In this document: positions 1-54,817 of the stretch, piece after piece
Numbering within the stretch: the stretch's first letter is position 1
Layout: each line of letters begins with the position of its first letter
Assembly (NCBI RefSeq): GCF_022045235.1
Contig: NW_027266273.1
Span: 4,712,001-4,776,000 of the forward strand
Direction of reading: 5' to 3'
Origin: Haliotis cracherodii
Lineage: Eukaryota
Length of the DNA: 64,000 nucleotides
Notes under the pieces: generated by a model
Database searches by the model: none
What the model was told of the DNA's origin: nothing
The model's input: only the letters and a program-made list of their open reading frames with translations
Program-made: the position numbers and the translations under genes

Positions 1-245
1 ATGATCATTACTTCTTCTATCAACTACTATTAAATGGCCCTGACAGGGCTGCAGGGATGTGGCTGAAATATTGCTGCTGTGGCACAAAACAACATTCACT
101 CACATGGGATTTGAAGGAAAGTGCTCAGAAAAGCTGCATGCAAAAATTGCTAAAGAAGAAGAGATTTTCGTTAAAGAAATTAGACAACTTTTTTTGTAAG
201 CCTGAGAGTCCCACATTGTAACTTAATATTCTTTAACTTCCTCAG

Positions 246-548
246 AGCCCCCAGGCCCCCCACTGTTTGTGCGGGTCAGCAAGATCACCAAGAAGTCTGT
301 CACTATTGACTGGGGTACGCCCTCTGACGATGGTGGCTCCAAGATCATTCGCTACCACATCTACACCTCAAAGAAGACAAGGGGAGAGTGGAAGGAGGTT
401 GCCAAGGTCAAGGCCTTTGACTCTGACTATGAAGTACAAGATCTTGAGGAAGGCCAAGACTACTTCTTCGCTGTTGCTGCAGAGAACGAAGTCGGCATTG
501 GCAAGATGGCAGAAACAGAAGCTGCTGCTAAGCCCCAGAAACCAATGG
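246..548 (+). CDS. FN3 exon 1 (phase 1-1)
   Basis: ctcag|AGCCC...ATGG|gtaag; EPPGPPLFVRVSKITKKSVTIDW...KPM. Confidence 0.93.
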
Positions 549-9500: not shown

Positions 9501-12500
9501 CGTGAATCAAGACGTAGTATATGGGGCCGTGCTGGTGTAGTAGATGCCAACACATTGACTTTTACAGCCAAAAACCTGGTGGTCAACAATGAGTACTTCT
9601 TCCGTGTCCGAGCAGTCAATTCTGAGGGAGAGAGTCTGCCTCTAGAGGGTGTTGACTCTGTCACTCCCAGCAAGAAGAAAGGTAGGTTGAACACATGAAG
9701 CAAGAAATACATGGGATGTCACTCTGTTCAAGTTTCTCAGTTGTCTTCTTGATAAAAGACTAATATGGATAGCTTCAGGTATTTGTAGGGCCACACAGTA
9801 TTTCATTCTGCTTTTGATCAAGTAAAGTCTTGTAAAAAATTCACAGCCTGGATCGTAAACCCCAAAACATTTTGATGAACTTGTGCAGTCACCATTATCC
9901 CAGTAGTTTCTCCAGATTCCCCGTGGTAAATTCTGACATGATTTCCCAATGACAGGGGCGACGCCATGTTTGTTTATAAACACTGAATGTAGTCACTACT
10001 TGCCCTTTGATATTTGTTTATCTATCATATCTATCCACATATGACCCCAACGGGTATCATTCTTATCTGTTGGCTTTATTCTGCTGAGAAACCTACCCAT
10101 TATATGATGAAACGTGTGATTGAGACCCCCTTGCTTTGACGAAGACAGTTTCCTCAGACTTCTTGGCCTACCAGCACATTCCTGGATATGGATTTCTCGA
10201 TATCCAGATTGTATTGTGATCTCTGTCTTCATCTTCCACAGATGTACCAGAAGCACCAGCATACATCTACCCCGGCCGTGTCTCCGACTCGTCCGTCACA
10301 ATCGACTGGAAGGCTCCTCTCAAAGATGGCGGTTCTCGCGTCAAGCAGTACCATGTGAAGATGACCGAGGACAAACCAGGCTCACAGTGGCTGGATCTGG
10401 GATCAGTGGAAGCCTACAAGACATCATTCAAGGCTAAAGACCTTGACTCCAAGAAGAAGTATCTGTTTGCAGTGGTGGCAGAGAACAGTGTTGGTCTCAG
10501 TGAGATGAGCGTTACAGACAGACCAGTGTCAGTCAAGACTGTTGTCAGTGAGTAGACAAATCTTCCATCTTAAAGCGAGCTACAGAGTAATAACCCAAGT
10601 ACTCTTGCTATTCTTAATATGGTGATTACATGGTTACAATGACTGTTGAGCTTGGGGGATAGAATTGAGTTACTATGATGGGATAGCTGGCTTTAAAAAA
10701 GCTTTTGTTAGTGTGTCACCATACTAAGGTAATGACCCCCTGGAGTAGAAATCCTTGGAAGAATAAGTAAGGATAAGATTTATGGATGAACAATTTCTTT
10801 ATTACAACTAAGAGTGACGTTTCGTTGTAGGTTCCAACACCATTATCAAACAAGTGATATACAGAGTATGGTTGACAAGTAGAATAGGTAGAGACCCATG
10901 TTTGGTGCATAAGCTCACTAAAAGAAGAAATGGATGCTCAAAATGTGCAACCTTGCTGATTGTGTGTCATGAGATGCCATCCTGACATCAACCAAAATGG
11001 CCCCTTTTAGATGAAAATTTGCTCTCTGTGCAAAAACCAGCATTCCATTCACTTTATGGGTACACATAATTTGGCTGATGGTTTGTCGGAATCAGATTGT
11101 TACAGATGTAATGATGCTCCCTAATGCAAACTTCTTTCCTTGTCCCCAGAGCCACCATCACCACCTGAAGGACCTCTGAAGGTCATCAACCTGAGAAAAG
11201 ACGGAGTCACCCTGTCCTGGATGCCACCCGAGGAAGATGGCGGTGCTCCAATCACTCACTATCTCATTGAGAAGCGTGATGCGTTCAAGACCAACTGGAG
11301 TCATGGAGACAGGGTCAAGGCCAGTCAAACCACAGCTGACATCGACTACCTGACCCCAGGAAACAGCTATCACTTCCGGGTCCTGGCTGAGAACCTCGTT
11401 GGCATCTCAGATCCTCTACTGTCAACTGAGCCTATCACACCAAAGAGTCCATACAGTAAGTATTTTCATTTTTAGAGAATTTAAAATGCAATACCAGACT
11501 AGACCAAAAATATTCTTGTAATTAGAATAAGCCTAACTAAACTTTTGTAGACCAGGGTTTGATTCCTGACATGGGTACAATGTGTGAAGCCCATTTCTGG
11601 TGTCCCCAGCCGTAATATTGCTAAAAGCGGCATAAAACAATATATTCACTCACTCACTCCATATCATGAATGGACTCATTTTGTAAAAAGCTATTGTAAT
11701 GTGATTGGCTGTGCTTCTGTACTTTAACGTAGCACTATAACACTGCAACCACTTTATGAAACAAGTCCCTTGTCATATGTCTTTTGTCCCTTGCTAAAGG
11801 ATACGATTTTTTACCCATATTTATTCAATATTTGAATACAGTGAGCTAAAAATGGCCTCAGAACAAATCATTTACAAGTTATGTTCTTCCAGATGTGCCC
11901 TCGCCACCAGTTGGGCCACTGGAGATCACCAGTGTGGATAAGAATTCAGCCACCCTCAAGTGGAAGCCATCAGAGAGTGATGGAGGACTTCCTATCAAGC
12001 ACTACGTCATTGAGCGTCGTGAGGCCAAGAGACAGTCCTGGTTGCGTGTGGACAGTGTCCGCCCCACCACTCACAGTTTCACCGTGGAGCGTCTCATTGA
12101 GGGCAATGACTACATCTTCAGGGTGTTTGCTGAAAATGATGAAGGCCTAAGCCTGCCATTGGAATCTACTTCACCAACATCGTGCAGACGTCAAGCAGGT
12201 CCGTGTTTTGAGAAGCAGACATGAAACTGATCTTATCACTGTTACTGTTGCCATAGTCATCAATTTTGCAAATCTATCTGAGTAAATTTTACTTTTTATG
12301 AGGCAGATTGTTGAATGGATTTTAAAAAATTGATGTTCATGGGTGTGGTCACAATAAAGAATAACACACAAGATTGTTCTTTCAAGAAAAGCACATATTT
12401 TGTTGGCCCGACTTTGACATAAAAATTTCTTACTTACTCAAGGTAACTGTTATATCTCAAGCTTATGATCGTATTTCATTGTGTGAGAGGTTATGTTAAG

Positions 12501-15500
12501 TTAAATCATTCATTAAGTTTTTGTGGAATATGTTTTGATAATGATTATGTTATTTTATCTCACATATGAAAATGACACCAACTTTTAATATTTTCCTCCT
12601 AGAACCCCCTGGCCCACCATCAGGCCGAATCCGAGCCAGCAAGATCACTGCCGACTCCGTTATGCTGGACTGGCTGCCTCCCATCGACGATGGTGGCTCC
12701 CCAATCACCAAGTACATCATCGAGGCTCGTGGGGCCAGTGACACCGATTGGAAGACCATGGCTGAAGTGGACTCTATTGCCACCAGACAGAACATCCGGA
12801 ACCTTAAAACTGGAGAGGTATATGACTTCAGAATCGCTGCAGTGAATGCAGTCGGACGCAGCAAGCCTAACAACCTGGACACAACTGTCAAGCCAATAAG
12901 ACCACTTGGTAAGTCAAGACTATCAAATCTATTATGACATTTTTCAGATGTCATTTTAAAAGATTAAAATTCATTTTGTATTTCTTTACCATTAACTAGA
13001 AGCTCCAGGTAAGTCAGGACTATGGAATCTATTGTTTGATTTTATAAATGTGATCAAGTTTAAAAGATTAAAATTCATTTTGTTCTTTCTTACCATTAAC
13101 CAGAGGCTCCAGGAGCTCCTAGAGGACCTCTGCAGCTTACCAACATGAGGCGTGACACTGCCACGTTATCATGGCAACCACCTCTTGATGATGGAGGCAC
13201 CCCAGTGACAGGCTACACCATTGAGAAGAATGACATGACCCGCAATGCTGGCTGGATGAGGGCAGCAAGAGTCGCCGGCCCCGTCACCAACTACACTCTG
13301 TCCAGTCTCGTAGAAGATCACTCGTACATCTTCCGCGTGTCAGCAGAGAACAAGATCGGACTTGGTGCTCCACTAGAAATGAAGACAGCTGTTGTTGCAA
13401 AGAGCCAGTTTGGTGAGATCTGTTTTTATAAAAAATATTAGTTCTGGCACGTTTTAGTGCTCTAATATAATCAGACATAATATAACAAGACATTGGACAT
13501 GCAAAATATGGCCTGTATTGGTCTGAAGTTTCATCTCAAAAGTATATGTACTACAATGAAAAAACCTTGTTTGTTGTACATGAACAAAAACCAAAAGGAA
13601 TCAACAAATAGTCAAAATTTCATTGCTAAATACCTTGTAACAAACAATTTATGACAACTGACATCACTTTAATGGTGGCGTTCTCCTGTTAGATGTTCCA
13701 TCACCACCCAGTCGTCTGCGGGCTTCTGATGTCATGGACGAGACAGTTGAACTTGAATGGCTGCCGCCAGACTTTACTGGTAACCTTCCCCTTACTGGTT
13801 ATGTTGTTGAGCGTCGCGATGCAGACAGGATGCAATGGCAGAGAATCGGCAACACCACACCTGATGTGACCAAATTTGAGGCCTTGAACCTGTTGGAAGG
13901 TCGTATGTACATGTTCCGCGTGATGGCGGAGAATGCAGAGGGTCTCAGTGAACCGGCCATGTTGCCAAGACCCATCATGCCCGAGAGACCAGTTGGTGAG
14001 TGACGGTTCCAATATTTGTTTGACTGGATCTTTATTGCCTTTTGGCAGCGTTCTTTGGTAAATTAATCATGGACTCTGCTCCTTGGTATGTTTCCAATGT
14101 CCAGTCTAGGTCAAGATATTGTAATTGTTCCCATGTATGAAATGAAGACATTGACTCTGTGTAATTTAGGTAGTCTTGCCCTTTTCACGAACACCTGGTG
14201 TCATCACTGATTTTCAGTGCCCCATTCATATAATTGTCACCGCTATTTTGCCTTTAACGCCCAGTGGAATCTGTTTCAAGAAATAATCAAGATTCTCTGG
14301 TGTTGATGTTTTTATGTTTAACTTCAAAATTGATATACATCAGTGGTGCTTGCATGAGTTGAATCAAGCTTTCTGGGACTGCCAATTGGCTTAATTGAAC
14401 TTTGTCACTTTTGGGGGTTGCAAATAAGATCATGTGACTAAATGATGACATGACTGCATCTTCCTGTGGTAAATGTTGTAGAATGTGGTTGAGAGACACC
14501 TCAGAGTCCATCTGTTAGCTGAAAATATCACTGTACTGCTGCATGGTAGATGATGCTCACACTATCGGCCACCAGTTTGCCTACTCCTGACCTAACACAT
14601 TCTGAAAGCTGCTGAGATACTCACTGATCCTGCTTATCCTTTGTGCACAGATCTACCCGGACCTCCAGAGGACCTTCACGAGACAGCTGTGGACCGAAGT
14701 ATGGTGTCGCTGACATGGCGCCGACCACAGTATGATGGTGGCGCTGTCATCACAGGATACAAGATCGAAGAAAGAGATGGCAAGGCAGCCACCTGGGTGA
14801 CGGCTGGAGAGGTTGGAGGCTTTGACCTCATGTACGACGTCCGTGGACTTATTGAAGGATATGAATACTTCTTCCAAGTCAGCGCCAAGAACATCAGAGG
14901 CTATGGTCCACCTGCTGAGCTGAAACAGGCCATTGTGCCATCTAAGCAGAAGGGTGAGTGACTTTACAAACTTTGTCAATACAATCTGTGAAGCTTCTCA
15001 TTACAATTTACTCAATAAGGTATGTATATTCAAATTAATGGTTCGATTAAACAAATTAGGAAAGATTTCTCAATATTCAAGGCGTTTTCAATATGATTTA
15101 AGAAAAAAATTGGCCCAGTGTTATTACTTGAAATGAAGATTTCCTGGTTTCTATTCCCTAAATTATATATGGTGGCAGGTTTTGTCGTCCCTTGCTGTGA
15201 TACAATATTATGCAAGCTCTTTCATAACTTTCATTTACTCAATTTGATGACAGTTAGAAAAATGTCAGTGGCTATCAATGTTTCTTGATGTTGTTCCTCA
15301 GGTAAACCATCCCGCCCAGTTGGTCCACTCCAATGCAGCAACATCACCGACGACTCTGTGAAGCTGTCATGGCTGCCGCCAGAGAGTGATGGAGGGTCCA
15401 GACTGACTGGCTACATTGTAGAGAAATCTGACATCAGACGTCCAACATGGCTACGTGTTGGCAAGGTCAGTAAAACCTGATTCACTCACTCATTGATTAG

Positions 15501-18500
15501 ACAAGCACAAGCACAAGATTTGTCATACATGCTTGATCATGGAGCATTAAACCTTTGCCTTATGTGTAAAGCCCATTCCTCCTCTAGTTTACTATCTAGT
15601 CCCTTGGGAATTCCAAGTCAGAATATGTCCCAGGCAACTGATGCTTGTCACACATGACTAAATGGATCAAGTGTCTATCTCATCCTATGGATTCAGGACA
15701 ATATGTAAACAATGTTTATTTTTATCATGTTAGAAATCATACAATTAAACTTCAAAATTATCCTGAACTGCAATAAATGAAAGTAACTTTGGTAATAAAA
15801 ATTGTATTGTCCTATATAGAAATGGCATAATTACTTTTATATTGAGGATCATCGTGGTGCACAGTATACAATTTTGTTGGTATTTCTAGGTTGATCCTGA
15901 TACAACAACACTGAAAGTTGAAAACCTCCTCGACAACGTTGGCTACTTCTTCCGTGTAATGGCTGAGAACGCCGTCGGAGTGGGTCAGCCTCTTGATAAT
16001 GAATCTCCCATCATTCCAAAGAGTCCATACGGTAAGGAATAAAAATATATTCATGAAGTTGTTTCTGTTATCGTTTTATTTTTGAATTCTCCAAGAAACG
16101 TCACTTAGATTTGTTAATATATGCATGTACGTTTTAATCTGAAATCAATGTTTTTGAAAATCAAACTTCATATTGATATCTGAGACCAAATATAACTTTT
16201 CTTGACTCCAATTTCATTTTTGTATTTCTTTCACTTTTAGGTCCACCAGGGCCCCCTACTGGACCAATCAAATCAATGCAGATGACCCGCGACTCTGCAA
16301 CCTTCCAGTGGGAACCTCCAAGTCAAGATGGTGGCTCAAAGATTACTGGCTACATCATAGAGAGGCGAGAAGAAGGCAAGAAGTCCTGGATGTATGTTGG
16401 CCGAAATGATGCCGACAATCTTTCCTTCTCGGCCACTGGACTGACCGAAAATATGGACTACTACTTCCGAGTGTACGCTGAGAACAAATATGGCCGCAGT
16501 GATGCTCTGCAGTCAGAAATTCCCATCATACCTAAGAGAGTATTTGGTAAGTACAAGATGTTGTTTTATTCATTTGAATTATTCTGTTTGAAATCATACA
16601 GTTTTAGGTGATGGTATTTTCATTTTTTAAAGTTTTTCATTTTTATAATATATATTTATTATATATTGTATTTTTTTTAAATGACCAAATTCATAAAGAA
16701 AATTATACATAAGTCATTCAGTTACAATGACTTAGCAGTACAGTGATATTTTCAGTTACAAATTGTAACGTTCATTCAGAAATGTTTTGTCTAGAAATTG
16801 TATGATTTCAACTTAAAAATACTTAAATGAGGCTTCTGTTTTGCCCACAAGTGAGTATTTATCACAGCTTATGTTAGTACTGGTTTGTTTTTGGAAACAC
16901 TATTATCTAGAAATTTATCTATTTTGTATCACAGATTCATTGAGTTTAACTTTTTAAAGTTCAATTTCTACCATAAGCTGTTGATGGATACGTCAAGTGG
17001 GATTGTCCACTGGTTTTGGGTTTGCAATGTGGGGGTTTGAACCTGTTTCCATGACGACTTCTCTGAGGCATGGTGAAGGGGCGTGGCACCATGTACGCAT
17101 ATGGCCAGACACGCCCCCCCTTTCTGTGTGACATGGTGTGGACAGTATATTCCTTAGCAGATGTACTTAGACCCATTAGCATTCAGCCCACAGTACAGTC
17201 TATAGGTAGTTATGTTATGTACATTCTTACATAGGCGATACTTTCTGATAAAAGTAAAAATATATTTTGAATTACAAACCACAGATATAAAAAAATAAAT
17301 GACATTTACAATTTTTAAGGGATTTGATAAAAGACATTTTATCATATTGTTTTATCAGTGAAGATTTTGATTGCTGAATTCAACATTTTCATTTAAAATC
17401 ATGATAAATATTCATGCATACATTCAGAGTATTTTTTCTGGGTTGGATGTCAAAGGTCAGTTTCAGTCTTGACCTGAATCAGTGAGTCTATCTGATATAT
17501 TCAACCCACAATCTGCAATATACCTTCACCCTAGACTTAATACAACTAGTATAAATACTATGGTTGAGTACATGGAATAGAGGTCCTGTTTTTTCTCCAT
17601 TTCAAGTCTAGTTCCAACAATAGATGCACGATTGATACAGTAGGTGTGTGATCCGTTTTTATGATTAGAGTTACCTCCCCTTCAAGTGAGTGTTGGCAAT
17701 TAAGAGTGACAAAGTCACATGTTGACTGGTGAATATAACTGAAAAACTGTTCATGCAATGCATGTATGACAGCATGAAATACTATTCCAACATAAAATAT
17801 TACCACATGGTAATATAATGATAGAGTTATCTCCCCTTCAAATGAGTGTCAAAAATTAATAGAGACAAAAATCACATGTGGACTGGTGAATATAACTGAA
17901 AAAATGTACATGTATTCACAGTTTTCATGTAAAGCTCGTAAGATAGCATGAGATATTATTCTAACATGAAATATTACCGCCTGGTAATATAATAATAGAG
18001 TTATCTCCCCTTCAAATGAGTGTCGAAAATTTATAGAGACAAAATTGCCGGTAAATATAACTAAAACACTATACATATGTTCACAGTTTTCATGTAAAGC
18101 ATGTTATGTGGTATGAAAGACTATCATAGTATTACCACCTGGTAATACAGTGGAGCCTCATTGTGTCGAGGGGTGGTCTGGCAGCCTAGTGGTTAAAGCG
18201 TTCGCTTGTCACGCGGAAGACCCGGGTTCGATTCCCAACATGGATACAATGTGTGAAGCCCATTTCTGGTATCCCCCACCGTGATATTGCTGGAATATTG
18301 CTCAAAGAAGCATAAAACCATACTCACTCACTCATTCGTGTCAAACTTTAAAGTGTCAAATTCCCTGTTGTTTCTGACTCATTTTGGAGTCCCAAGTATT
18401 TCAGTTAAGCATAAATTCCCCTGATGTCTCGAACCCTACATTACTCAGCCATTTTTCCAACTCCCCACAAGTTCTCCACAACGAGGTTTGACTGTTTAAT

Positions 18501-21500
18501 GATGGACACAAACACTTCACATCGTGGCTAAATAAAGGGGAGATAGCCTCAGTCTGACATCCAGCTTTATCTTAACCCTTAGTGCCTCTATATGTATGAT
18601 GTCCTTGCTTGTCTCACTTAACCTTCTTGCCTTGTGTTTGTGGTGCATGGTGCATGTGGAAATCTTGTAATAATTCTTTCATTATGTCATTTCTTTCAAC
18701 TTGTCAGTCTGTTTATGATATTACAGTCAAAATGTTTATTATCGAGACATTTTTCAAAACTTGTAACACGAGTAGAGCTCCATGTTGAGCCAATTTCATT
18801 GGTGTAATTGTTTTCAAATAAAGTAATGTTTCCCTGTTCTATCCTAAACAGACTGATTGTACTTTAACTTTTTAATCAGTAATTTGTTAACCAAGACTGC
18901 TGCTGCTCTGTGAAGCTGTTGAAGCATCTAACATTGAAATTATTGGTTCAGTTTTCGTTGATCTTCTGTATACTTACTTACCTTTCCTCTGGTGCTTCTT
19001 TGCAAAATTAACAAAAGCTTCCTATGAGATATGGTCTCAGAAGTTCAAACATTTTGAGGAGGAATAACACCATGATAATTGAAAGGATTATATGTAATTT
19101 ATTTCCTATAACTGTAAACAAGTAAGGATGCATTGGAAAAGATATTGTGAATGAATTGAAACCCAGAATTCTAGACTGCATATTTCTTGATTATTATTCG
19201 GAAAAATATATGATATCATGTTATCTATCTATAGCTGCTTTAACAATTGAAATTTGAATTTAATATATATTTTTTGGGGAAAACAAATTGACAGGTGTAT
19301 TCATGTAATTTTCAAAATTATGAATCCTTGACGCTTTCTCTGCATCCTTCTATGAGATTTATGAGATTAAAAAATATATTATCTTGATTATATATCAAAA
19401 TTTTCTATAAGACACATTGTGGTATCTACAATAATCTCTATACTCTGTGTTGGGCTTCCTTGATTAGCCTGTGTATTATTTCTCAATTCTATTGGGATGA
19501 ATATCCTGGACTCATTTGTTACTATAGCTTCGATTTGAGCCAGATTCAAATTAGGTGACAACTAAGATTGCCATCAAATCAAATAACTCTAAGACTGAGA
19601 GAATTTCTGTGCTAAGCTGGTCAAAGGCTAGATGAAGATAGTGACGTCTCTTTCTAATGAAGCTTCGATGGCAAATGGGTCCAGGGTATTTATTGTACAA
19701 AATGGAGATATAATACCCTGGATAGTAGAGGATGAGTGTTGGAAAGTCAATGGTTGACGTGTCAGCAGCTGTCTTGGTTAACTCTCTGTGACAACTCACA
19801 TTCTCAACGCTGCTGTTTCTCTGTTTCTCCAGAATACGCTGGGAATAGTTGGCTCCGCCAGGCAAACCTTCAACCATGTATTAATGTCTACATGATTCAG
19901 AATCTAACAAGATACGAGTATATCTATCGTGTATACGCTGACAACCCCCTAAGCTCTGTGTGGGATTCCATAGACTTGAGTTCTATTGCGGGACGATTTT
20001 AACAAATTGATTGTTATCCAACCACACATTATATTCTCCTAACAACTTATGGTGTGAAAGTTCGGAAATTTGATTTAATTTGACGCGTTCTCATTTCTCT
20101 TAACATATTAACCACTAATTTATTATTCATTGCTAAAAGCTTTCTGATTTAATTTTTAATGACTAACATTTGTACATTCTATGACTAATATCTGTACATT
20201 TATGTATGGTAACTTTGTTAACATTGTTAGTTTTCTTATTTCACTGATCTCTTTGTTGATATTGATATTAACATATTTCCTTGGCTGTGTCTGGAGCATA
20301 TTCACCTGATGGGCATTAATCATCAGAGATTGTGAGTTGTGTTCATTTTCTGCATTTGCGTACCATTATTATTGCTTCTTTCTGCGCTGAAGCTGTCATA
20401 TAGACGCATGCGAATATTTGGCTTTTCCAGCTTTTGAGGTATTAACAATGTACCAAAATTGCATAAATTTCAGGAAACATGTCATAATGTCAAAAGTAAA
20501 TATTGATGTTTGGGGTGTTTCATTTTGGCCTTTACTTAAACATAATTTGTTTCCTTTTCTGTTTGAAATTTATTAATGTGTCATTTTCGGTGACTGTAGT
20601 TATCTCCCCTGACTTGATATCTACAGTTGCAATTATATTGTTGGGCACATTTGTAGATGCCAAACAGCAAAGGAAATAGTTCTGTTTAAAAATGTTTATT
20701 GAAAATATAATGCGCTTTGCTTAAATCTGAAATATTTATCGATGGAAAACAAATCTCTAATGATTTCGGCCCTGACCCTTTCACTTGTATTATGCTCCAT
20801 ACACAGATGATTCTATGTGTTAAACTGTCATTTGTGAAGTCAAATATCTCCTCTTTAATTGCTATAGGTTTCCCTCGGTGAATAAATCTTTATAACTGTT
20901 GGCGATGTTATTTTGTTATCAATATTGTACCATGTTGTGTATATTAGTGTAGACTAGATGTAGTCAATGTTGTCTATAACAGCACTCACGTTGCATACAC
21001 AGACAATATGTTGTCGTATTACAGGATCAATGCTGAATGGCTCACGATGCATGGATAGGAAAGTTTTTGGATCAAGTGTTATAAAACAGTTACATGACAG
21101 CTATAATAAAGTGGTATTTTAGAAGCTGTAATGTCCATGAACACTAATGGATTCAACTTATTTATTAAGTTATTTGGAAGTTTTACACAAATGATTCATT
21201 CTTGGTTTCAACATCAGAAAGTCTGATGCTGATCTCAAAGAAATGTCATTAAAATCAGATCTTAGTTCACCCTACCACAAAACAAAGATTTGAGGACATT
21301 ACGGGTCATGTCATACGACCTTACATTCGCCCAATCAGGGCGTTGCTTACCAGATCAGGAAAGTGACATTCGGAGTGTATTTTCTCTTCATGTAACCTCG
21401 AAAATGTTAACACAGGGTTTTACGAACGACAGTTACAGGTTTTATGACCAAATCCATACAAGCTGGGCCATTTATTAACCATTCTAGAATGTTGTTTTGT

Positions 21501-24500
21501 TCAGTTTTCAAATTTTTAATGAAAAACTTTGACAAGATGTGTTTCGAAGGATAGTCACCAGTTTGAAACTAGTCCCGAAAGTAAGAAAGATTGCCTTCTG
21601 ATTGCCCAATATCGACTTCTGCTCGATCAAAGTTGCGTCAAAGTTGGTTGGTCACATTTCGTGAAAGTTCGGTCTGACGTGACCCACATTGGGCTGTCTT
21701 CAGATCTTTGTTAAGGTGTAGCAAGAACTAAGATTTGATTTTAATGAGATTGATCTCAAAGCATTGACTGAAGCTGTTAAATGATGTTGTAGAAGTTACT
21801 CCCTCTGAACGTCTGTTGTGATATCAATGATGTGAAGTGGTTCTAAAACAATACATCAAAATTAGATAGTTTCTGAAAAAGTTCTTCTACTGAATCTGTA
21901 GAATAAAAAGAAGTACAGTGAAGTCTTGTTAAATCAAACTCCTTGATCTCAAGATGATACGTCTCAGTAGAAAATCGTATTTCGAACTGTGAATATCTTT
22001 TCATTTTCTATGGTGATCAGGATATCTAGGTAACGCTACAGTTTTCGTTTAGTCAGTTATGTGAGTTTGTGACCCTTGATCTTCAGACTTTCCATGTATC
22101 TTGCATATAGCATACTAAGAGCATCTACACATGGCCACACTCACTTGACTCACATAAGCCACACTGACTCACAAATACATGTTTCCTGTGTATCACACCT
22201 CACAAGGCTCATCTATCAAGTTAGTTGCACTCAATGTTTTTACTCATTTGCAAATAATGAACATTCTAATCTGAAAATAACTCATATTACATCATGAATG
22301 ACTGAATTTAATTTAAAATTCGTTCATGAAACTTTCTCACTTATTTTTTTTGTCAACATTTTTTCTAACATTTTGTCATCTTCTGGTACTTAGATTACTG
22401 GAATTATGTGTTAATTTAAAAAAAGTTGACTAAAACAAGATTTTAAGAGTAAACTACTTGGAATAAAAGATTTCATGAAAAGATGCAAAGGAAAAGTATT
22501 CTTTGAAAGAAGTCTGATTTCATTATGGCCAGGGACTCCTTGGGGAAGAACCTTACTAATTCTTTTGAATGGGAATAAACATCATCCTCTGTGAGGATTT
22601 GTGGAATTACCGCTGCAAAATAGATCTTCAAGAACATTAGAACAGTCACAAGTTTGTCATGATAGTCTGCGACTAGCTGATGTTAAGCTGGTCTGTGTAG
22701 ACTTTGTTTCCGTGTAATATGTTTGTGTGTACTGTCCACCCTGTCATACTTGGCATCCAGAGTCCGTTCCGGGAATGTCGTCACTTTTACCAAAGTCAGG
22801 TAAACTTTGTGTACGTGTTTATTGTGTTTCTGTATGTGCAGTCACACCCCTAGCTGTCTCAGGGCCTATAGTCCTCAACAATTGTGCCAAAGTGACATTT
22901 GGCTTAGGGGTTTACCTCCAAAACCTGAAGGTTTAATAGGACTGTTTTATATGTTGTGTATGTTAAGTGTATGTACTGTATGTCATCTATATGAGCTGTC
23001 CATTGGATGTCATTTAGCTGTATGTCACTTGATATTACTGTCCGTCACTTGACATCAACTGTTGATGGGATGAACATCAGAAGTACGGCAGCAATTTCAT
23101 GGGTACATGTTTGCTTATTGTCAGTTGTACTTTAGCTGAATATCAAGAGTACATTGGCTGTACATCAACTATACACCGGTTTTATGTCAACTATACCGTA
23201 TTCGACATGATAAGCTCTCAGGGTGCTCTCAAAATTAGAAATAGGGTCTCTTATTAGAATAAAATTTTGGTGAAAAACAACAGAGTTGAAAGATCGTAAA
23301 TTTTGTGGTTTATGCTGACAGCCTGAAATGTCTGTCTGTGTGTATTATACATGAATGATATATTTTTCAAGAATTAAATTACCCATAATTAAGGGTGCAT
23401 ATAACACGCGAGTGTGTACTATACACGAATAAATAAGTCTTGTGTGTATTGATCAATCGGAAGGAATTGGAATTGTTCACTAGCCAATATATTAGCAAAT
23501 ATTGCCGTGGGCGCTTATTAGAGCGGGGCACTTATTACGTCGATAATGGTATATTGGCTATATATTGGATAAACATCAGCTGTACGTCAATACACAGTGC
23601 ACCTGCTGAACAGAAGCTTAACGCTGGCCATAGATTGGATATACATTAGCTGTATGTCAGCAATACATTGACAGAGTATCCGATGAACAGAGGCTTAACA
23701 TTGGCCATAGATTGGATATACATTAGCTGTATGTCAGCAATACATTGACAGAGTATCTGCTGAACAGAGGCTTAACATTGGCCATATATCGGTTATACAT
23801 CAGCTGTATGTCAGCAATACACAGTGCACCTGCTGAACAGAAGCTTAACATTGGCCATATATCGGATATACATCAGCTGTATGTCAGCAATACATTGACA
23901 GAGTATCTGATGAACAGAGGCTTAACATTGGTTATATGATGGTTGAACAGAGGTATACATTGGCTGTACATAAGGTCTACATCGACTGTACGTCTGCTGA
24001 ACTAGAAGCTTAACGCTGGCTACATGTAGCCTAAACATCAACTGGACATCGGCTACACACCAGAGCCCTGCACAAAACCTGCACAAAACAATCGTAGCTA
24101 TATCAGATTGCAATCCTAGGCTACGACTGCACACCATACACTTGCACAAAGCCATTGTAAGTTAAGATCATTTTCAGCTGCAATTGAAATTTACAATTGT
24201 TCTGGACTAAGATTATTGTAGTCCCTGAATTAACTTGAACAAAATGGCATACAAGATAGGGTCTGTTTCACAAGTAATCTTTACTTTCAAACATTACCAT
24301 TTCATTTTGTTTAAATGTGTGATTCGAACTGACACTTTAGCAGCATGAAGAACGCATTTCAGAAATATCATGTCAGAAATATCTTGAATCACAATAGTGA
24401 ACCACATATGAGCCGATAGCTAAAAGTACCATTACCACCAGACTCAAATGGTGAAAGAAGTGTTAAATAGTGGTAACCTTATCGATGACGAAGAGTTTAT

Positions 24501-27500: not shown

Positions 27501-30500
27501 GCAACCTGAAATGTAATGAAAAACTAAAAAAATGGTTTGCTATAAATATTCATTTAGGCTTCAGTGACCTATCTGTGTATTCAGTCTTTATCAACCAGTT
27601 CTGGATTACACAGGTTCAGTAATCATTTAAATATTTAAAGGAGGAATAAGCAACAACAACAAACATTATTAATGTGTTGTTGTGCCAGAGCCACCTTTAT
27701 ATGTAGCATTAAAAAAATGAAAATGATTTGTATGAATGCTGCTGACATAGCTTAATTATCAGTTATGATGTGCATACAAACAGTCAACAATAGAGCTGTA
27801 TGATATACAAATACATTACATTTTAAAACAGGTCCACTACAGCTGTATGATAGAATTATAAAACATGTTCAGTACAGCTGTTTCATATGATTATAAAACA
27901 GGTTCAGTACAGCTGCATGATATAAATCCTAAAACAGGTATAGTAGGGAAGTACGATATGATTATGAAACAGGTTCAGTACAGCTGTATGATATAATTAT
28001 AAAACAGGTTCAGTAGAGCTGTATGATATAATTATTAAACAGGTTCAGTACAGCTGATATAATTATTAAACAGGTTCAGTACAGCTGTATGATGTAATTA
28101 TGAAACATGTTCAGTACAGCTGTATGATATAATAATAAAACAGGTTCAGTACAGCTGTATGATACAATTATGAAACAGGTTCAGTACAGCTGCATGATAT
28201 AATTATAAAACAGGTTCAGTCCAGCCGTATGATATAATTATAAAACAGGTTCAGTACAGCTGTATGATATAATTATGAAACAGGTTCAGCAGTGCAGCTA
28301 GTTATGTCCTTCAACGTCTCAACACACTGATTCTCCACCACAAGAGACTGGACAATGCTATGACCTATTTACAAGTCCTCGTGAAAAGACTGAAGGAACA
28401 AACAGTCCCAAAGAAAACATGTCACATCAGTTGGCACAATTCACTGTGCAGGATTGCGTCCCTTTGTTGTATAAGTATCTGCTGATCATGAGGTCGACTC
28501 CCTTGTTGTTGTCATCCTTGGTTTGTCAGCTCCATACCTACGGGTTTCACTTTGCCCTCACGTAAGTGGACAGAGGTGGTGGGGTAGCCTCTTGGTTAAG
28601 GTGCTCATCACGCCGAAGACCCGGGTTCGATTCCCGATATGGGTACAATGTGTGAAGCCCATATCTGGTGTCCCCCACCATGATATTAATGGTGTATTGC
28701 TTAGAGCAGCTTAAGACTATACTCACTGACTCATAAGCGGATATTTAAGCGGTTTAAAGATGACACTGAATCAGGTAACAGATGGCCATGTGGTCCTGTC
28801 AAAACTGCGTTATCTCACACACTCATTATGTATTTTAACTTAAGTGTGTCTGTGATATGGAATGGTTGAGTGATGTTGGGTTTGATGCTGCTGTTGACAT
28901 TCAATATGTTTGTCACAGTCTGTCAGCTTCCTGTTGGAGTAAACACCAGAAGACAAAACCAACGAGTATTGGTATTTACAGACCAAAGATCACAACATTG
29001 GCAAGCCAGTGGAACCTTCAGGGCTGTACTGCTAGTCACTGTGCAGAGTTGTATCCCCTAGCCATGCCAGGATCCTCTGATCATAGGTTCAGACAATGTT
29101 GTCTGATAATTATCTGTGGTTTGTCAACAATGCTTATTAGTTTCATATTATCTCTGAGGTATCCTCCCACTTTAAACTGCAGTACTGTTCAAAGCAATTA
29201 AACCCCTATATGGGATTGTGTAGCTTCCCTTATCATGGACCTGGCAATCATATATTCATGCGCTCTGTATGTCTTGCAGCTCCACCAGAGGCACCAGCAT
29301 CATTACGGGCGGAGAACATCGACAAGGATTGTCTCACCCTTGTCTGGAACCCACCAGAGGACGATGACAGTATCACTGGCTACATTGTTGAGAAGAGGGC
29401 ACAAGATTCTGAAACCTGGGAACGTGTTGCACATGTGCCAGGCAAGACTACAGCTCGCGATGTCATTGGTCTGCCAGAAAACCAGTCATTCTTCTTCAGG
29501 GTCATTGCAGAAAATCCTGCCGGAGTTAGCCCCCCTGCTGAACTCCGACTTCCTGTTGAGCTGAAGGCAAAGAAAGGTAGGAGCAATCTAAAGAAATAGG
29601 TTACAGTAAATAAATATTTGTTCATGATTTAAGATTTCATTTTGCGTATATTGGTAGAATAATTCATTCCAACAGTCATCCTAGAACATATGAAAATATA
29701 TTTTACGTAATGTTTGCTAGTTGTTCGTTGTTCACATATCAGCACTTGTAGATGAACAGGCTTTCTTTTCTTTTTTGCCTTGAACATTGTGTGAGAGTTC
29801 GGTTTCTCAGCATGCTTTAAATGTTGATTTTTGTAGTTTCACAGTAGTTATACACAGTAGTTGAATGCACAGGTTTTCTATTCTAGGTATCTGTTTACTT
29901 TTTACTCTGACTTGCTAAATACATCATTATTTGTGGCATGACAAGTGTATTCCAACAGTGTATTCCCATTGTATTTAACTACATGCATGAACCTTAATCT
30001 ATATGCCTTTAATTCATTTCAGATTTATTTTCTTTCATAAAGGTTTGCTAATTATTAACACCTAATGTCAAATGTTCAAACAAATCTCTTGAATAAAGCA
30101 TGATACAAACATTTGTTGTTGTTTATTTCTCTTCTTTTTTTTCACTGAATGGATGATAACATGTGTGAGTTGTTTGAGTGTGAATGCATGACCTTGACCC
30201 TAAAGTTTGCTGTGACCTTTCTGTGATTAAACCTTGACCTTTCCTTTGCTGTCAACCTATGACCTCATTATCCTTGACCTATCTATTGCCTTGCTTGTTC
30301 TTTGTGCTTCATACTTCTGTCTGTATATTGTGTGTTGTCAAGTTTGGAAATTGTGCCTCAGTTGGATATATTACACCAGTATTTTACTATGAATTATTTT
30401 CAAAAATATATTTGGACACTATACTGCTTAAAACCTTTTTCATATTTGGGGTAACATGCAGCATTGATCTTAAAAAAATACCATTTTTTAATAATCAGGT

Positions 30501-33500: not shown

Positions 33501-36500
33501 CCTGCACAGTCACCTGCCTGGAAGACCGAGGACAGTTCAAGTTCCGCATCCTGGCAGAGAACATGTACGGCATCAGCAGTCCTGGACCTGAATCCGAGCT
33601 TGTGGTCACCCGTGAGCCGATCCCAGTCGTGGACTATGACAATCTATGTAAGGGACAAGGCTTTGTGTGCTTTTTGAACTTTATTTGCAAGGTGGTATTT
33701 CACAAAGAACAGATTTTCATGTATTGATATGAGTAATGGATTTGGAAGGGTTGTTTTGATCTAACACTGTATTAATGTTGTTCCTTGAAGAATTTCTGGA
33801 AAAATGTCCTGATTTTGTGCAAAGAAGGGGTATTGTGTCAGTTGCACACATAAAGTAGTTGGCTTACTTGCTTTTAGCCTTGTTGAGGCAGTTCTATTGA
33901 AGAAGGAACAAGATTTCTGTGATAAGAGTCTTGCAGATTGATAAAAAAATTGTTCTCAGTTAAGAGATTTACTAATGTACGAGTACAACTCTAATACACC
34001 TCTAATCTCTAATACAGATGATGCTGACTTCACCGGAACTCCAGTTGATGTAAGCAGAATCCGAGGAGACATCCTCAGCAAGTACATCATCTGTGAGGAA
34101 CTCGGAAGGTCAGTCACAGCTCGTTCCCAGCAATGTTCACGCGATAATATTTATCAAGCATGTGTTAACAGTGAAACAGCTTCATGTTCTCGATGCCTAA
34201 TTTAGTTTCTTTACAAATACCAATATAAGTATACCGATCTCACTTAACAGTCAATGTCATTACAGAGGTGCATTTGGTGTTGTCCATCGTGCTGTTGAGC
34301 GAGCCACCGGTAAGAACTGGGCCGCCAAGTTCATCCGCTGCCGCCCCCACGAGAAGGAGACGGTGCGTCACGAGATCGACATCATGAACCGCCTCCATCA
34401 CAAGAAGCTGCTGCAGCTCCATGAGGCCTTCGACCAGCCCGGAGAGATGGTCATGATCCTGGAACTGTGAGTCCTTTGTTAAGTCTTTGGACCTGTGAAG
34501 ATTCCGGGGTAGAATAGGTCTTCAGCAACCCATGCTTGCCGTAAAAGGCGACTATGCTTGTCATAAAAGGCAACTAACGGGATCGGGTGGTCAGGCTCAC
34601 TGACTTGATTGATGCATGTCATTGATCCCAATTGTGTGGATTGATGCTCATGATATCAGTCACTGGATTGTCTGGTCCAGACTCGATTATTTACAGACCG
34701 CTTTTTCTAACAGTGGGGGTAAATGATATTGGTCATGATAATAATAATACACTAAAATAGAGCTAGGCACATAGTACATGACATGGTAAGGGAATCAGCA
34801 TGTATTTGAATTTCTATTCTCAACTCCCTGAGATGACACTATATTTTCTGGTCAGGTGATCCAGTTTTGGATATAACAAAATAAATGTTTTGTTGAGTTG
34901 GATCAAGAGTTGGATCAAATGTTGCTTGTGTTTGGAAACCTTCATGAGTTGATTAAGATGCTATGGCATGTGTTTGCAGACTGAGTGGCGGCGAGCTGTT
35001 CGACCGCCTGGTCCAGCAACAGTATGACCTGACAGAGGAAGACTGCATTACCTACATGCGGCAGATTTGCCAGGGCGTGCAGCACATGCACAGCAACAAC
35101 ATCATCCACCTTGACCTCAAGGTCAGTCACGCACTTTCAACATTTTTTAATTATGTGCTTGTACATGATGCCAACCCAGAGTACAGTTGTTTCTGTTAAA
35201 ACATACAGATTCTACACAAAAGAAAACCTGATTATTTCATTTGACAGATAAGCTATAGTCATATGAACAAGTATATATATATGGTAACTGTTGAAGGAAT
35301 TTCTATCATAGAAGCTTCATGTTCTACATGAACTCTGAACAATCGGTAGGCAAGTGGCTACAGTGTTTGCCTCATTTCAACAGAGACCCAGTTCAAATCC
35401 AATCATTGGTAAAATATGTGATACCATTTCTGTTTTCTGCTGTGATATTACTGAACTATACCTAAAGGCGGGGCGGTCTGGTAGCCTAGTGGTTAAAGCG
35501 TTCGCTCGTCACACCGAAGACCCGTGTTCGATTCCCGACATGGGTACAATGTGTGAAGCCCATTTCTGGTGTCCCCCGCCATGATATTGCTGGAATAACC
35601 ATACTAACTCACTCACTGTACCTAAAAGCAGTTAAAACCTTAGCTTTCATAATGATGGGTGATGTAACTGAAGCAATGACATAAGTGTCTGTCCTGTCAA
35701 CAGCCAGAGAATGTCATGTGTGTGACCAAGGACAGCAAGGACGTGAAGCTCATCGACTTCGGATTGGCTCAGCGCCTGCAGGAAGGCAAGTCCGTCAAGG
35801 TTCTGTTCGGAACAGCCGAGTTCTGTGCACCTGAGATCATCAGCTTTGAACCTGTGTCCTTCGCAACCGACATGTGGTCCCTCGGAGTGGTCTCATATGT
35901 CCTGTAAGTACCCGGTATTGTCAAACCTGCCTGAAATCCATTAGGAAACTTATTTGAGGTGAGGTGAAATGGGATTTAACGTCACCTCCAAGATTATTGC
36001 ACTTATATAGTGAGGTACATGCACATCTGTGTGTGGCTGCTTGAACTAGTCTGGACTTATAGTGCTAGCCCACTGAGATACCATGCTGCAGTTTAACATG
36101 GATACCCTACTCAGACACAGTATACTGCCTCCAAGCCAACAAGTCCTTGTTTTTTCCCCTTAATGCTTAGTGCCAGGGTAACAACAAGTACCATCTTTCA
36201 ACGTCTTTTGGTATGATCTTGTCAGACAAAGGCTACCTGCTTCTCTTATTCTGTTCATCTGTATGTTTAAGCTACATTGCAATAAATGAAGCAACTGACA
36301 GTGGTCCGAAGTGTTGCTATCCTAGATATGGCATTGTATTTTGAGTGTATTTCGTCCAGACTGAGCGGCTACTCACCATTTGCTGGAGAGAGTGACCAGG
36401 AGACCTTTGTGTACATCAACCGTGCCGAGTTCGACTACGATGACGAGGCCTGGGCGCCTGTATCAGAGGAGGCCCGGGACTTCATCAACAAACTCCTCCT

Positions 36501-39500
36501 GAAAGACAAGAAGTGAGTTGCTAGAGTAGTCTCCCCTTGCCCATGGTGACTGATTGCGTATGTTATGACTTGCATTTTGTCAAGCATTTCAATTTCATGA
36601 TGAGAACGGTAATTACCTTAACAGTTACTAAATGATTGCGAAGATTAGTATTAATTTTACAGACATTTTTTTAGCATAGGAATTAAATCCAGAAGACACA
36701 ACCTGCCCACAAATCTTTCAAAGAGGAGAATGTACAGTAGTATTTGTAGCTTGTTGTTTCGGTACATATTCACTTTCTGAACTGCAACTTTCAGGCAGAG
36801 GATGACGATCGACGAGGCGTTGGCCCACCCCTGGTTGAATGTAAGTACTGCTTCTACCTACCTTGTGTTGCTGTCATCCTCTCATCTGTCCTGGGACATA
36901 CACTGCTTTAAGTGTGGCGGAGGCATGGCTACAGTCTCCAGTTTGGGAATGAGCTATGTGTAGTATTGTACATCATCGCGGAGCCCTGTGTCCCCACTAA
37001 CTGCTGGGGGCTTGAAGGGAAACTACACTTGGGCCAGTTGGCAGTTGGAGCAAATTTGATTCAAGTCTTTCAAACCAAAATTATTTGTCAGCAAACTCAA
37101 AATTTACATTGATACCAGCTTTAGTCAGAATAGTCACGCTTTTAGAGATGCCCTTAAGTATAAGTCAATACCGTATTTACCATATAAAGCCCCCTTATTA
37201 ACTTCTACGCCAACATCTGAGTAATTTTTATAAATGTCCCCTGATAAGACCAGAAATGTACATGACGGTCCATATTTACGGAACTCGGCACTATATGACA
37301 GTTATTAAACTGCCCAACTTTTATGACATTTTTTACATTACATTTTGTTCACAACTTTTGTTCACTTGTGCCCAATCTTTCAAAACAAATTTAACTTGTT
37401 GTTTCTGGTGTTGATAAGCATCCCCCTTTGTCAAGTTTCCAGGGCGCTTATTACGGCAAATACGGTACATTTAATTCTATCTGACTTTTTTCATTAGCAT
37501 TGTTATGCAGTTTAAGAATAGTTGGTATTTCTTTTACAAATGCAGCTGATAAAATTCTTTAACTGGATTTTTTCAAGACTTTCTAATTGTTACATATACT
37601 GTCAGTTTGAATATGATTTGGGATACAGGATTAAGATGGTGATGTTTGGTTCTGAGGGGTAAAGAACCTATAATGTATCGGAACATTTGAAAAGCGACTT
37701 AGTATTTTACGCTTGTTACAAGCTAATTTGTCAGAATATATCTTATTGTATTGTGACAAACTGTAGAGGCATATACCTTTCCTTAACCTAGGAGCATGGT
37801 GCTGACCTTTGACATCAACCATTCCATATCATATCCTTCATCAACCATTCCATATCATATTCTGCAACAATTATAAGGGATGGTGGGGAAGCCTAGTGGG
37901 TAAAGCATTCACTCGTCACGCTAAAAGGCCTGGGTTTGATTCTCCACATGGGTACAATGTGTGAAACCCAAATCGGGTGTTTCCACGGTGATGTGGCTGG
38001 AATATTGCCAAATGTTGGGTAAAATTTTATTTGCCCATCTATTCCGTACCATATTCATCTTTAAGGGTGGAATTTCATTTTCATCATCACTTTGAATTGA
38101 TGATTCCTCTATTGTGCATTGTGAGCATAGTCATCTTCATCAACAGCCAGGCATCTTCATCAACAATGATATGCATTGTTATACATGCAGTGGTGTATAA
38201 ACCATGATATCAGTCATATCCATATATCATTGTATCATAATATTCATTGTTATTAACTGTGGAACTTTGTTGTCATCTAACTGGTAAACTGTACAATGCC
38301 ATATTCTGGGTTTTTTATAGAAATTATATAACAATTTTTCTGATTCAGTTCTAGACTGTTCATAGAGGATTAAATAGGGCGTAATTCTTTTGCTTAAGAA
38401 GTTTCTTTCAAAACCATAGAGTTTTATGGGCAGCCATCTGGTAAAAAAATACAAGGTCATTATTTACATACAAACTGTGAATTCAAAATACCCCAAAATA
38501 CAAATGAACAATTAACTCGGAAACAAAAGATGTCATATGTAGAGAAAGAATAATGTGTATGAAAGAACGTCAGTGCACAAAAAGGACACTAAACTGCTAA
38601 AGTACATCATTGGCAATAAAGAAAGCTAGATGGTGCTGCAATTTGTAAATGATATTTTATTTATTTGGCTTGTTCCTCCGTGTAGATGATAAATACGTGC
38701 CGAAGTGCTCATTGTATTTAATCATTCCTCGTGCACTCAGTTTGATGGTTAAACTATGATACGCAAAAATTGAATTGCAAAATTAGAAAAGAAATGCAAG
38801 TGATTTCTAAAAGTGTTTTGGAGAGGAACAAAAAAAATTTGTCAGCAGATCGGTAAACCAAATAATAACTAAGAAATGTTATTGTCAAGCATATTTCAAA
38901 TAGCATGTCCTTTAAAAAAAAAATCATTCTATATTTGTAAAGTGTCAACTACTTTTGACATCCATGAATCATCATCAAAATATAAAGGATTGTAAATCAT
39001 CATGTCTTATGATCTTTTATCACAAAAGACCCTTGAAGATCCGGAGTAGAATAGGTCTTCAGCATCCCATGCTTGCCGTAACAAGCGACTATACCGGTAC
39101 TTGTCATTAGAGGAAACTAACGTTATCGGGTGGTCAGACTCGCTGACTTGGTTGATGCATGTCATTGATCCCAATTGCGTGGATCAATGCTCATGATATT
39201 AATCACTGGATTGTCTAGTCCAGACTCTATTATTTACAGACCGCCGTCATATAGCTGGAATATTGCTGAGTGCGGCGTTAAACAACAAACCAAACAACTT
39301 TTAGCACAAAATGTACATTCACGTTGACCAACTAGGTTATATCCTGTTTGTTCACCTGAAGTAATACAATGTAATTACTGAATGCACTTAATACATTAGA
39401 CAGCAATGTTTCCCGAAATGGGTAACCAAGTAAGGGGTGTGTGCATTCCACACAAGCAAGATGATAAATATTAACTGAGACAAGGCAAGTCCAGGGCCCA

Positions 39501-54500: not shown

Positions 54501-54817
54501 GTTGAAAGTGCTGTGGCCGTTAGGGTTGTACGAGAGGTTTGTGAGGAAATAAAAGTTGCAAAACATGTGGTTGAGACGCAACAAATATACACAACAAACA
54601 TTCAGGAGGAGGTAATCCAGTCCGAGACACTGACAGAGACACATGTGGCAGTGGAAAGGTGCGTGTTGTCAGGCCTCAGTGTAATTCAACCTTGGATAGG
54701 ACGTAGTGAAAGTCAGGTTTGATAAGCTGCTTCTAATCGTCAAGGAGAGGTAATAGGCTATGATTCCTGTAAATGTTTTGAAATAACAGTGACTCTTCAC
54801 GTCATCTGCCCTCAGAA

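What the first reader, a model, noticed from the sequence alone, without database searches (positions are those of the whole stretch)
19833..21110. Hidden half-FN3 terminal exon that would end the protein before the kinase
Seen: a strong pyrimidine tract and AG, in phase with the donor at 16546. The peptide SWLRQANLQPCINVYMIQNLTRYEYIYRVYADNPLSS aligns by eye to domain 3 (SWLKVDQVKPSIKSYCIQKLMEGNEYFFRVIAENPEGLS), i.e. only the C-terminal strands of an FN3, then 12 more residues and TAA. An AT-rich tract with AATAAA at 20881 and 21105 follows. Inference: a kinase-less isoform ending in an incomplete beta-sandwich, which might pair by strand complementation.
Basis: partly seen in the sequence, partly recalled or inferred. 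Interest (0 to 1): 0.7.

Follow-up and report, generated by a model that had tools for sequence, protein, structure and literature searches.

The report
Kinase-skipping titin tail exon
The giant muscle titin gene of this animal (likely a sea snail) has an alternative last exon, found spliced and poly(A)-tailed in sequencing runs of related animals, that would end the protein before its kinase with a short half-domain tail also present in a periwinkle, where the tail likely serves as a docking end.

Summary
The exon is real. The acceptor at 19833 is in frame with the donor at 16546. The junction appears in contigs of 3 of 4 runs laid (three organism labels, three studies). One run shows a poly(A) tail at 20900, 14 nt after AATAAA 20881.

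A Littorina saxatilis gene model ends with the same tail: 40/56 identical, 13 of the last 14, same stop. Neighbouring full FN3 domains are only 43-66% identical.

The gene is Sallimus/Titin-class rather than twitchin: Ig arrays, giant PEVK-like exons, 56 FN3, then the tail or 3 FN3 plus kinase. The tail is an FN3 C-half (strands C', E, F) whose G strand is replaced by a new conserved end.

Strand complementation is unsupported.

Arthropod Sallimus-like proteins also end in a half-FN3, but common origin is not proven: 5 of 40 controls score as high. The kinase junction was not checked by reads. Verdict: new variant of a known kind, interest 0.6.

The parts
16241..16546 (+). Exon of the last complete FN3 before the branch point (Fn56); phase-1 donor GT at 16547-48
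   Evidence: its last 19-29 bases are the loose ends joined to 19833
19808..19832 (+). Proximal acceptor: pyrimidine tract and CAG
   Evidence: score 11.0, rank 2 of 685 AGs; used in X1, X3, X4
19833..20002 (+). Coding part of the alternative terminal exon: completes a Glu codon, 55 more residues, TAA at 20000-20002
   Evidence: 40/56 identical to the end of Littorina P0012; single copy in G000
19835..19948 (+). FN3-derived part of the tail (profile positions 47-85, strands C', E, F)
   Evidence: strand naming inferred from the Fn56 model
19958..19999 (+). Last 14 residues, replacing the FN3 G strand; most conserved part
   Evidence: 13/14 identical to Littorina; V42, W43, S45, I46 invariant in 4 of 4 tails of this type
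20003..20900 (+). 3' UTR of the short isoform (32% GC)
   Evidence: unspliced contigs 19874-20512 (X1) and 19938-20900 (X3); indels only here, none in the coding part
20881..20886 (+). Poly(A) signal in use; cleavage at about 20900, followed by a GT/T-rich, not A-rich, genomic stretch
   Evidence: 22-A loose end behind 20900 in X3; X4 contig ends at 20876; downstream sequence
21105..21110 (+). Second AATAAA, not conserved and without sign of use
   Evidence: A>C at 21105 in X1, X3, X5
29280..29580 (+). Distal acceptor and Fn57 exon, entry to the kinase-bearing long form (end approximate)
   Evidence: in frame with 16546, acceptor score 7.7; junction not tested by reads
34261..36513 (+). Kinase exons that the short form leaves out (span approximate)
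   Evidence: Pkinase above cut-off in 3 of 4 exon pieces; motifs seen

Best explanation
19833-20900 is an alternative last exon of a giant Ig/PEVK/FN3/kinase titin gene, spliced to the last full FN3 exon and polyadenylated in related animals, so it would yield a kinase-less titin ending in a conserved 56-residue cap that likely acts as a docking end rather than a folded domain. Shown: the donor at 16546 joins the proximal acceptor at 19833 and the RNA is cut at about 20900. Inferred: skipping to the distal acceptor at 29280 gives the long form with 3 more FN3, Ig domains and the kinase. Inferred: the cap arose from the C-terminal half of an Fn32/34/37/38-type domain, lost strands A-C and G, and gained a V-W-[DE]-S-I end. 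Untested: it folds on binding a sarcomere partner, most likely at the thick filament, where the C-terminus of Sallimus-class titins lies. The choice between the two ends would be tissue-regulated.
For: Junction loose ends in X1 (2 contigs, 19 nt), X3 (1 contig, 29 nt) and X4 (1 contig, 29 nt) match the end of exon 16241-16546; poly(A) in X3; in X1 exon contigs have depth 6777 or more against 63.7 for the intron-holding contig; X5 shows only unspliced contigs at depth about 9. Littorina P0012 has domains 1:1 with Fn48-56, then the tail and the same stop; the tail (40/56) is better conserved than any orthologous FN3 compared (43-66%). Two further lone-exon proteins, P0123 and P0126, carry the tail (E 4e-7 and 5e-4), with 15 invariant positions over the four. 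P0008 ends after a matching last FN3 with a weakly similar tail (0 of 5000 shuffles reach the score). A Lingula gene model runs from Fn55/Fn56 orthologs into two FN3 and an Ig, like the long form. AlphaFold2 gives no confident fold for the tail: pLDDT 57 alone, under 50 for residues 102-158 behind a well-folded Fn56. The C-terminal end of Drosophila Sls reaches the myosin filament (PMC9886278, passages).
Against: The runs are contigs of relatives and are only guessed to be RNA; the junction and poly(A) tail are what show processing. None is known to be the window's own individual. 1 of 4 runs lacks the junction and 3 of 4 show no poly(A) end. The 16546>29280 junction was not tested by reads, so 'alternative' rests on open frames and a brachiopod gene model. 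P0012 is a gene prediction. No protein evidence and no partner were found. Low pLDDT with 6-7 aligned sequences is weak evidence of disorder. Among close relatives coding and UTR differences are alike (X1: 2 in 129 coding bases, one of them Y>H, against 9 plus 2 indels in 510 UTR bases), too few for dN/dS.
Confidence: 0.8

Rival explanations
1. The tail is the ordinary end of the gene, and the FN3-Ig-kinase exons from 29280 on are a separate downstream gene with its own promoter, as with split titin genes in arthropods.
For: The 13 kb acceptor gap is three times the next largest among the FN3 exons (4.3 kb); the proximal acceptor is the stronger (11.0 against 7.7); the Littorina model stops at the tail; no read test of the long junction was possible.
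Against: The 29280 exon has a phase-1 acceptor in frame with the donor; a Lingula gene model continues past Fn56 into FN3-FN3-Ig. Both can hold together if there is also an internal promoter.
Confidence: 0.15
2. The half-FN3 pairs by strand complementation or exchange with a partly unfolded FN3 of a neighbouring titin molecule, as anastellin does with fibronectin.
For: The tail keeps FN3 core features (W, EY, R-x-Y-A-x-N); the low-confidence models give it a three-stranded sheet; strand exchange by an FN3 fragment has a precedent (PMC13233970, passages).
Against: No lone N-half partner in 464 kb; the F-G glycine and the G strand are replaced; conservation peaks outside the FN3-like part.
Confidence: 0.15
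3. A decayed duplicate exon, spliced by accident, whose peptide has no function.
For: Below Pfam detection; no confident fold.
Against: 71% identity with Littorina and an identical stop position; junction in three studies.
Confidence: 0.02

Closest known systems
Lophotrochozoan 'Sallimus/Titin' class (PMC12063666: passages and table S1 seen, which lists Crassostrea and Mizuhopecten members)
   Same: [quoted passage not shown]
   Different: That paper draws the longest isoforms; the passages seen mention no kinase-less end or half-FN3 tail. The figure itself was not seen.
Arthropod Sallimus / D-titin / I-connectin (PMC9886281 passages: five C-terminal Fn domains)
   Same: P0130 (SH3, Ig array, five FN3) and firefly P0124 end in a half-FN3 tail after the last full FN3. 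Two consecutive Ig domains of P0130 match two consecutive exons of this gene best (43% and 41%). Naming them Sallimus is inferred from architecture; the SH3 and lack of kinase in Sls are recalled.
   Different: Here 56 FN3 precede the tail, no SH3 was found, a kinase module follows in the genome, and the V-W-[DE]-S-I end is absent from the arthropod tails.
Early-terminating isoforms of titin-family genes: vertebrate Novex-3 (PMC13649281, search listing only) and Kettin from sls (PMC9886281 passages)
   Same: An alternative end truncates a giant titin; for Novex-3 the terminal-exon mechanism and the loss of the kinase are recalled.
   Different: Those stop in the I-band part; this one keeps the whole FN3 array and ends in a remodelled half-domain.
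Twitchin / projectin
   Same: FN3-Ig-Ig-FN3-kinase-Ig order at the C-terminal module.
   Different: No Ig-Fn3 super-repeat: 50 FN3 (Fn7-56) run without a detected Ig.
Anastellin (fibronectin FNIII1 fragment; PMC13233970 passages)
   Same: An incomplete FN3 sandwich able to expose strands.
   Different: Anastellin is a recombinant fragment; that it keeps strands C to G is recalled. This tail is exon-encoded, lacks C and G, and no exchange is shown.

Membership tests
Alternative last exon | Spliced to an upstream donor in frame | tested here: met
   3 of 4 runs; frame
Alternative last exon | Own poly(A) site | tested here: met
   22 A behind 20900 in 1 of 4 runs, genome not A-rich there
Alternative last exon | The same donor also joins a downstream exon | tested here: inconclusive
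   in frame and seen in a Lingula gene model; no reads
FN3 domain (PF00041) | Seven strands A-G and score above the Pfam cut-off | tested here: not met
   no Pfam hit; only profile positions 47-85
FN3 domain (PF00041) | Descent from an FN3 | tested here: met
   E=0.0064 among 3444 ORFs; hhalign probability 97.8 against Fn32/34/37/38/50 C-halves, a class picked after seeing the best matches
Sallimus/Titin (I-band titin) class | Long Ig arrays and PEVK-rich springs | tested here: met
   27 Ig hits upstream of -160 kb; ORFs of 9296 and 2747 codons at 65% and 70% PEVK
Sallimus/Titin (I-band titin) class | SH3 domain near the C-terminal Ig array (recalled for Sls) | tested here: not met
   no phmmer hit in 264 kb and none by eye before the matching Ig pair; a split exon could be missed
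Sallimus/Titin (I-band titin) class | Synteny with SEC14/spectrin genes upstream (PMC12198301) | not tested
   upstream DNA was scanned only with Ig and FN3 profiles
Twitchin/projectin | Ig-Fn3 super-repeats | tested here: not met
   50 tandem FN3
Ortholog of the arthropod Sallimus-like C-terminal tail | Closer to the arthropod tail than ordinary FN3 halves are | tested here: inconclusive
   hhalign score 31.5; 5 of 40 random FN3-half profiles reach it and the Fn32/34/37/38/50 class scores 43.6; the arthropod-tail profile gives 8-10 bits to 3 of 4 tails of this type against at most 5.2 for 269 internal domains, but the reverse search gives only 4-8 bits
Strand-complementing FN3 fragment (anastellin-like) | Binds a complementary FN3 part | not testable with these tools
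   no lone partner half in the locus; needs a binding assay

The most novel reading that the evidence does not exclude
The half-FN3 cap is an ancient protostome titin C-terminus. This one locus makes both a Sallimus-like kinase-less titin and a kinase-bearing titin, and arthropod Sallimus is the short form fixed as its own gene. The exon would then mark the point where the protostome I-band titin lost its kinase, and the cap would be an unrecognised thick-filament docking motif testable in Drosophila.
Probability: 0.4. Interest if true: 0.8.

Novelty: new variant of a known kind. Interest (0 to 1): 0.6.

Why it matters
How protostome titins split their spring, filament-binding and kinase roles is stated to be unresolved (PMC12198301, section 18 read), and comparisons use the longest isoforms (PMC12063666, passages). 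A conserved kinase-less end in the lophotrochozoan gene changes that comparison. It also supplies a 56-residue motif, missed by Pfam, as a candidate for how these titins anchor their C-terminus. The exon already sits unnamed in a Littorina gene model, so it is in databases. No paper describing it turned up in eight literature searches; these cover open-licence PubMed Central and bioRxiv only.

Tried and rejected
No RNA holder was listed on record among 23 runs; 18 were guessed RNA, and 4 of the 23 were laid. Word-index searches with the tail found nothing new (0 of 4 candidates, missing even P0012; only P0012 of 14 candidates), so they say little about range. Of the 5 phmmer hits, P0122 was dropped as a repeat artefact; P0124 and P0125 scored mainly through ordinary FN3 domains, and their tails were noticed afterwards. 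ESM Atlas gave no useful lead. No solved structure of the tail was found; the 5 hits had E 0.33-0.8. The two-copy complex job gave no verdict and is not used either way. Alignment A3 placed the tail-only rows on the wrong domain and was not folded. A recalled resemblance to Drosophila MnM/CG14964 was dropped once P0130 showed SH3 plus five FN3. The search for a hidden N-terminal FN3 half between 16547 and 19832 was negative. dN/dS in close relatives was uninformative. Peptide-motif search of papers gave 3 unrelated hits. Three look-ups of earlier findings returned nothing. Of PMC12063666's five supplements only table S1 was read; the others may bear on the Sallimus comparison.

Full report
Setting. 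The window lies at G000:C10:4712001-4776000 in a 1.18 Gb genome. With 360 kb fetched upstream and 40 kb downstream, the + strand holds Ig exons, giant PEVK-like exons, a tandem Ig array, and 59 FN3 domains, 56 before the finding and 3 after it, then a kinase and more Ig. Fifty FN3 run without a detected Ig, so this is not twitchin. It fits the 'mixed' lophotrochozoan Sallimus/Titin class of PMC12063666 (passages and table S1).

Observation. The donor after 16546 is phase 1, the acceptor ends at 19832, and the joined frame gives Glu plus 55 residues and TAA at 20000-20002. The peptide matches positions 47-85 of a window-built FN3 profile at 14 bits, E=0.0064 among 3444 ORFs; the best chance hit is about 5 bits. 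Pfam misses it. The acceptor ranks 2 of 685 AGs in the intron. Fourteen residues, not 12, follow the FN3-like part. The exon is single-copy in G000.

Transcription. Four of 23 listed runs were laid on 19550-21450. All are contigs, guessed to be RNA, from four organism labels and four studies. In X1, X3 and X4 the loose ends before the exon read as the last 19-29 bases of exon 16241-16546, which shows the junction in 3 of 4 runs. X3 has 22 A behind 20900, 14 nt after AATAAA 20881, where the genome is not A-rich. X5 has only unspliced contigs at depth about 9. X1 also has a lower-depth contig running on to 21299. The second AATAAA is changed in X1, X3 and X5. The coding part shows two substitutions (one silent, one Y>H) in three runs and no indel; the UTR has indels at four places.

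Conservation. Littorina P0012, an NCBI gene model, ends with the Fn56 ortholog followed directly by the same tail and stop: 40/56 identical, 27/42 in the FN3-like part and 13/14 at the end. phmmer over 1.84 billion representatives gave 5 hits. P0123 and P0126 are unnamed lone-exon versions of the tail, and 15 positions are invariant over the four tails. P0122 is a repeat artefact. P0008 ends after a similar last FN3 with a weaker match (0 of 5000 shuffles against the two gastropod-type tails, but no clear match to P0123). A peptide better conserved than its neighbouring folded domains is under selection (inference).

Arthropod link. P0124 (firefly) and the P0125/P0130 cluster (unnamed) end in a half-FN3 after their last full FN3. 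P0130 has SH3, Ig domains and five FN3; Drosophila Sls has five C-terminal Fn domains (PMC9886281, passages), so these are likely Sallimus. I did not see the Drosophila sequence. The firefly tail and the gastropod-type tails match the same FN3 subclass best. Profile comparison gives probability 90.9, but 5 of 40 random FN3-half profiles score as high, and ordinary Fn32/34/37/38/50 halves score higher. Shared position and subclass favour common origin; sequence alone does not prove it.

Structure and mechanism. AlphaFold2 folds Fn56 with confidence and the tail without: pLDDT 57 alone and under 50 in context, from 6-7 sequences. The tail keeps C', E and F, lacks the glycine found in 57 of 58 ordinary domains at the F-G turn, and ends in a new conserved element. 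No lone A-B-C half was found in the 464 kb scanned. I therefore read the tail as a remodelled docking cap, with strand exchange of the anastellin type (PMC13233970, passages) as a minority option. Shown: splicing, polyadenylation, conservation, FN3 origin. Inferred: alternative use against the kinase form, translation, docking at the thick filament, where the Sls C-terminal end lies (PMC9886278, passages).

Novelty. Truncated titin isoforms are known (Kettin, PMC9886281 passages; Novex-3, PMC13649281 listing only). A kinase-less end that keeps the whole FN3 array and carries a conserved half-FN3 cap was not found in eight literature searches, though it is present unnamed in the Littorina model. 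The history of the protostome titin split is open (PMC12198301, section 18), and this exon makes one scenario testable. Verdict: real, new variant of a known kind, interest 0.6; 0.8 if the Sallimus link holds (probability 0.4).

Noticed in passing
upstream of the window, about G000:C10:4575528-4603415 (window-relative -136473 to -108586): One open frame of 9296 codons (27.9 kb, 65% P/E/V/K, internally repeated). If it is a single exon it exceeds the 17,106 bp given for the largest human titin exon in PMC12198301. Further PEVK-like frames of 2747, 1644 and 1596 codons lie nearby.
   Followed up: no
upstream of the window, window-relative -45100 to -38900 and -18400 to -13000: Near-identical recent tandem duplications: an Ig pair repeated about five times and an FN3 triplet about three times.
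   Followed up: no
window 227-16546: FN3 exons appear to follow a six-domain super-repeat (similar starts and ends every sixth domain), by eye.
   Followed up: partly
window 15289-16030: Fn55 is the only FN3 split over two exons; the halves join into a complete domain.
   Followed up: yes
window 16935: An AG scoring higher (12.3) than the tail acceptor, with no FN3 match after it; possibly a decoy.
   Followed up: no
window 53844-54719: A 292-codon acidic open frame between Ig exons after the kinase, possibly a linker exon.
   Followed up: no
window 18170-18330, 28500-28700, 35450-35600, 19660-19735, 21240-21450: Dispersed repeats: a SINE-like element recurring in introns, and two repeat stretches flanking the exon that draw many unrelated contigs.
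   Followed up: no
window 23553-23931 and 27820-28289: Tandem repeats of 77 bp (4.3 copies) and 35 bp (13.5 copies) in the large intron.
   Followed up: no
PMC12063666, section 11: The authors report failing repeatedly to make a C-terminal knock-in in Drosophila Sls, which would fit a C-terminus that tolerates no tag; anecdotal.
   Followed up: no
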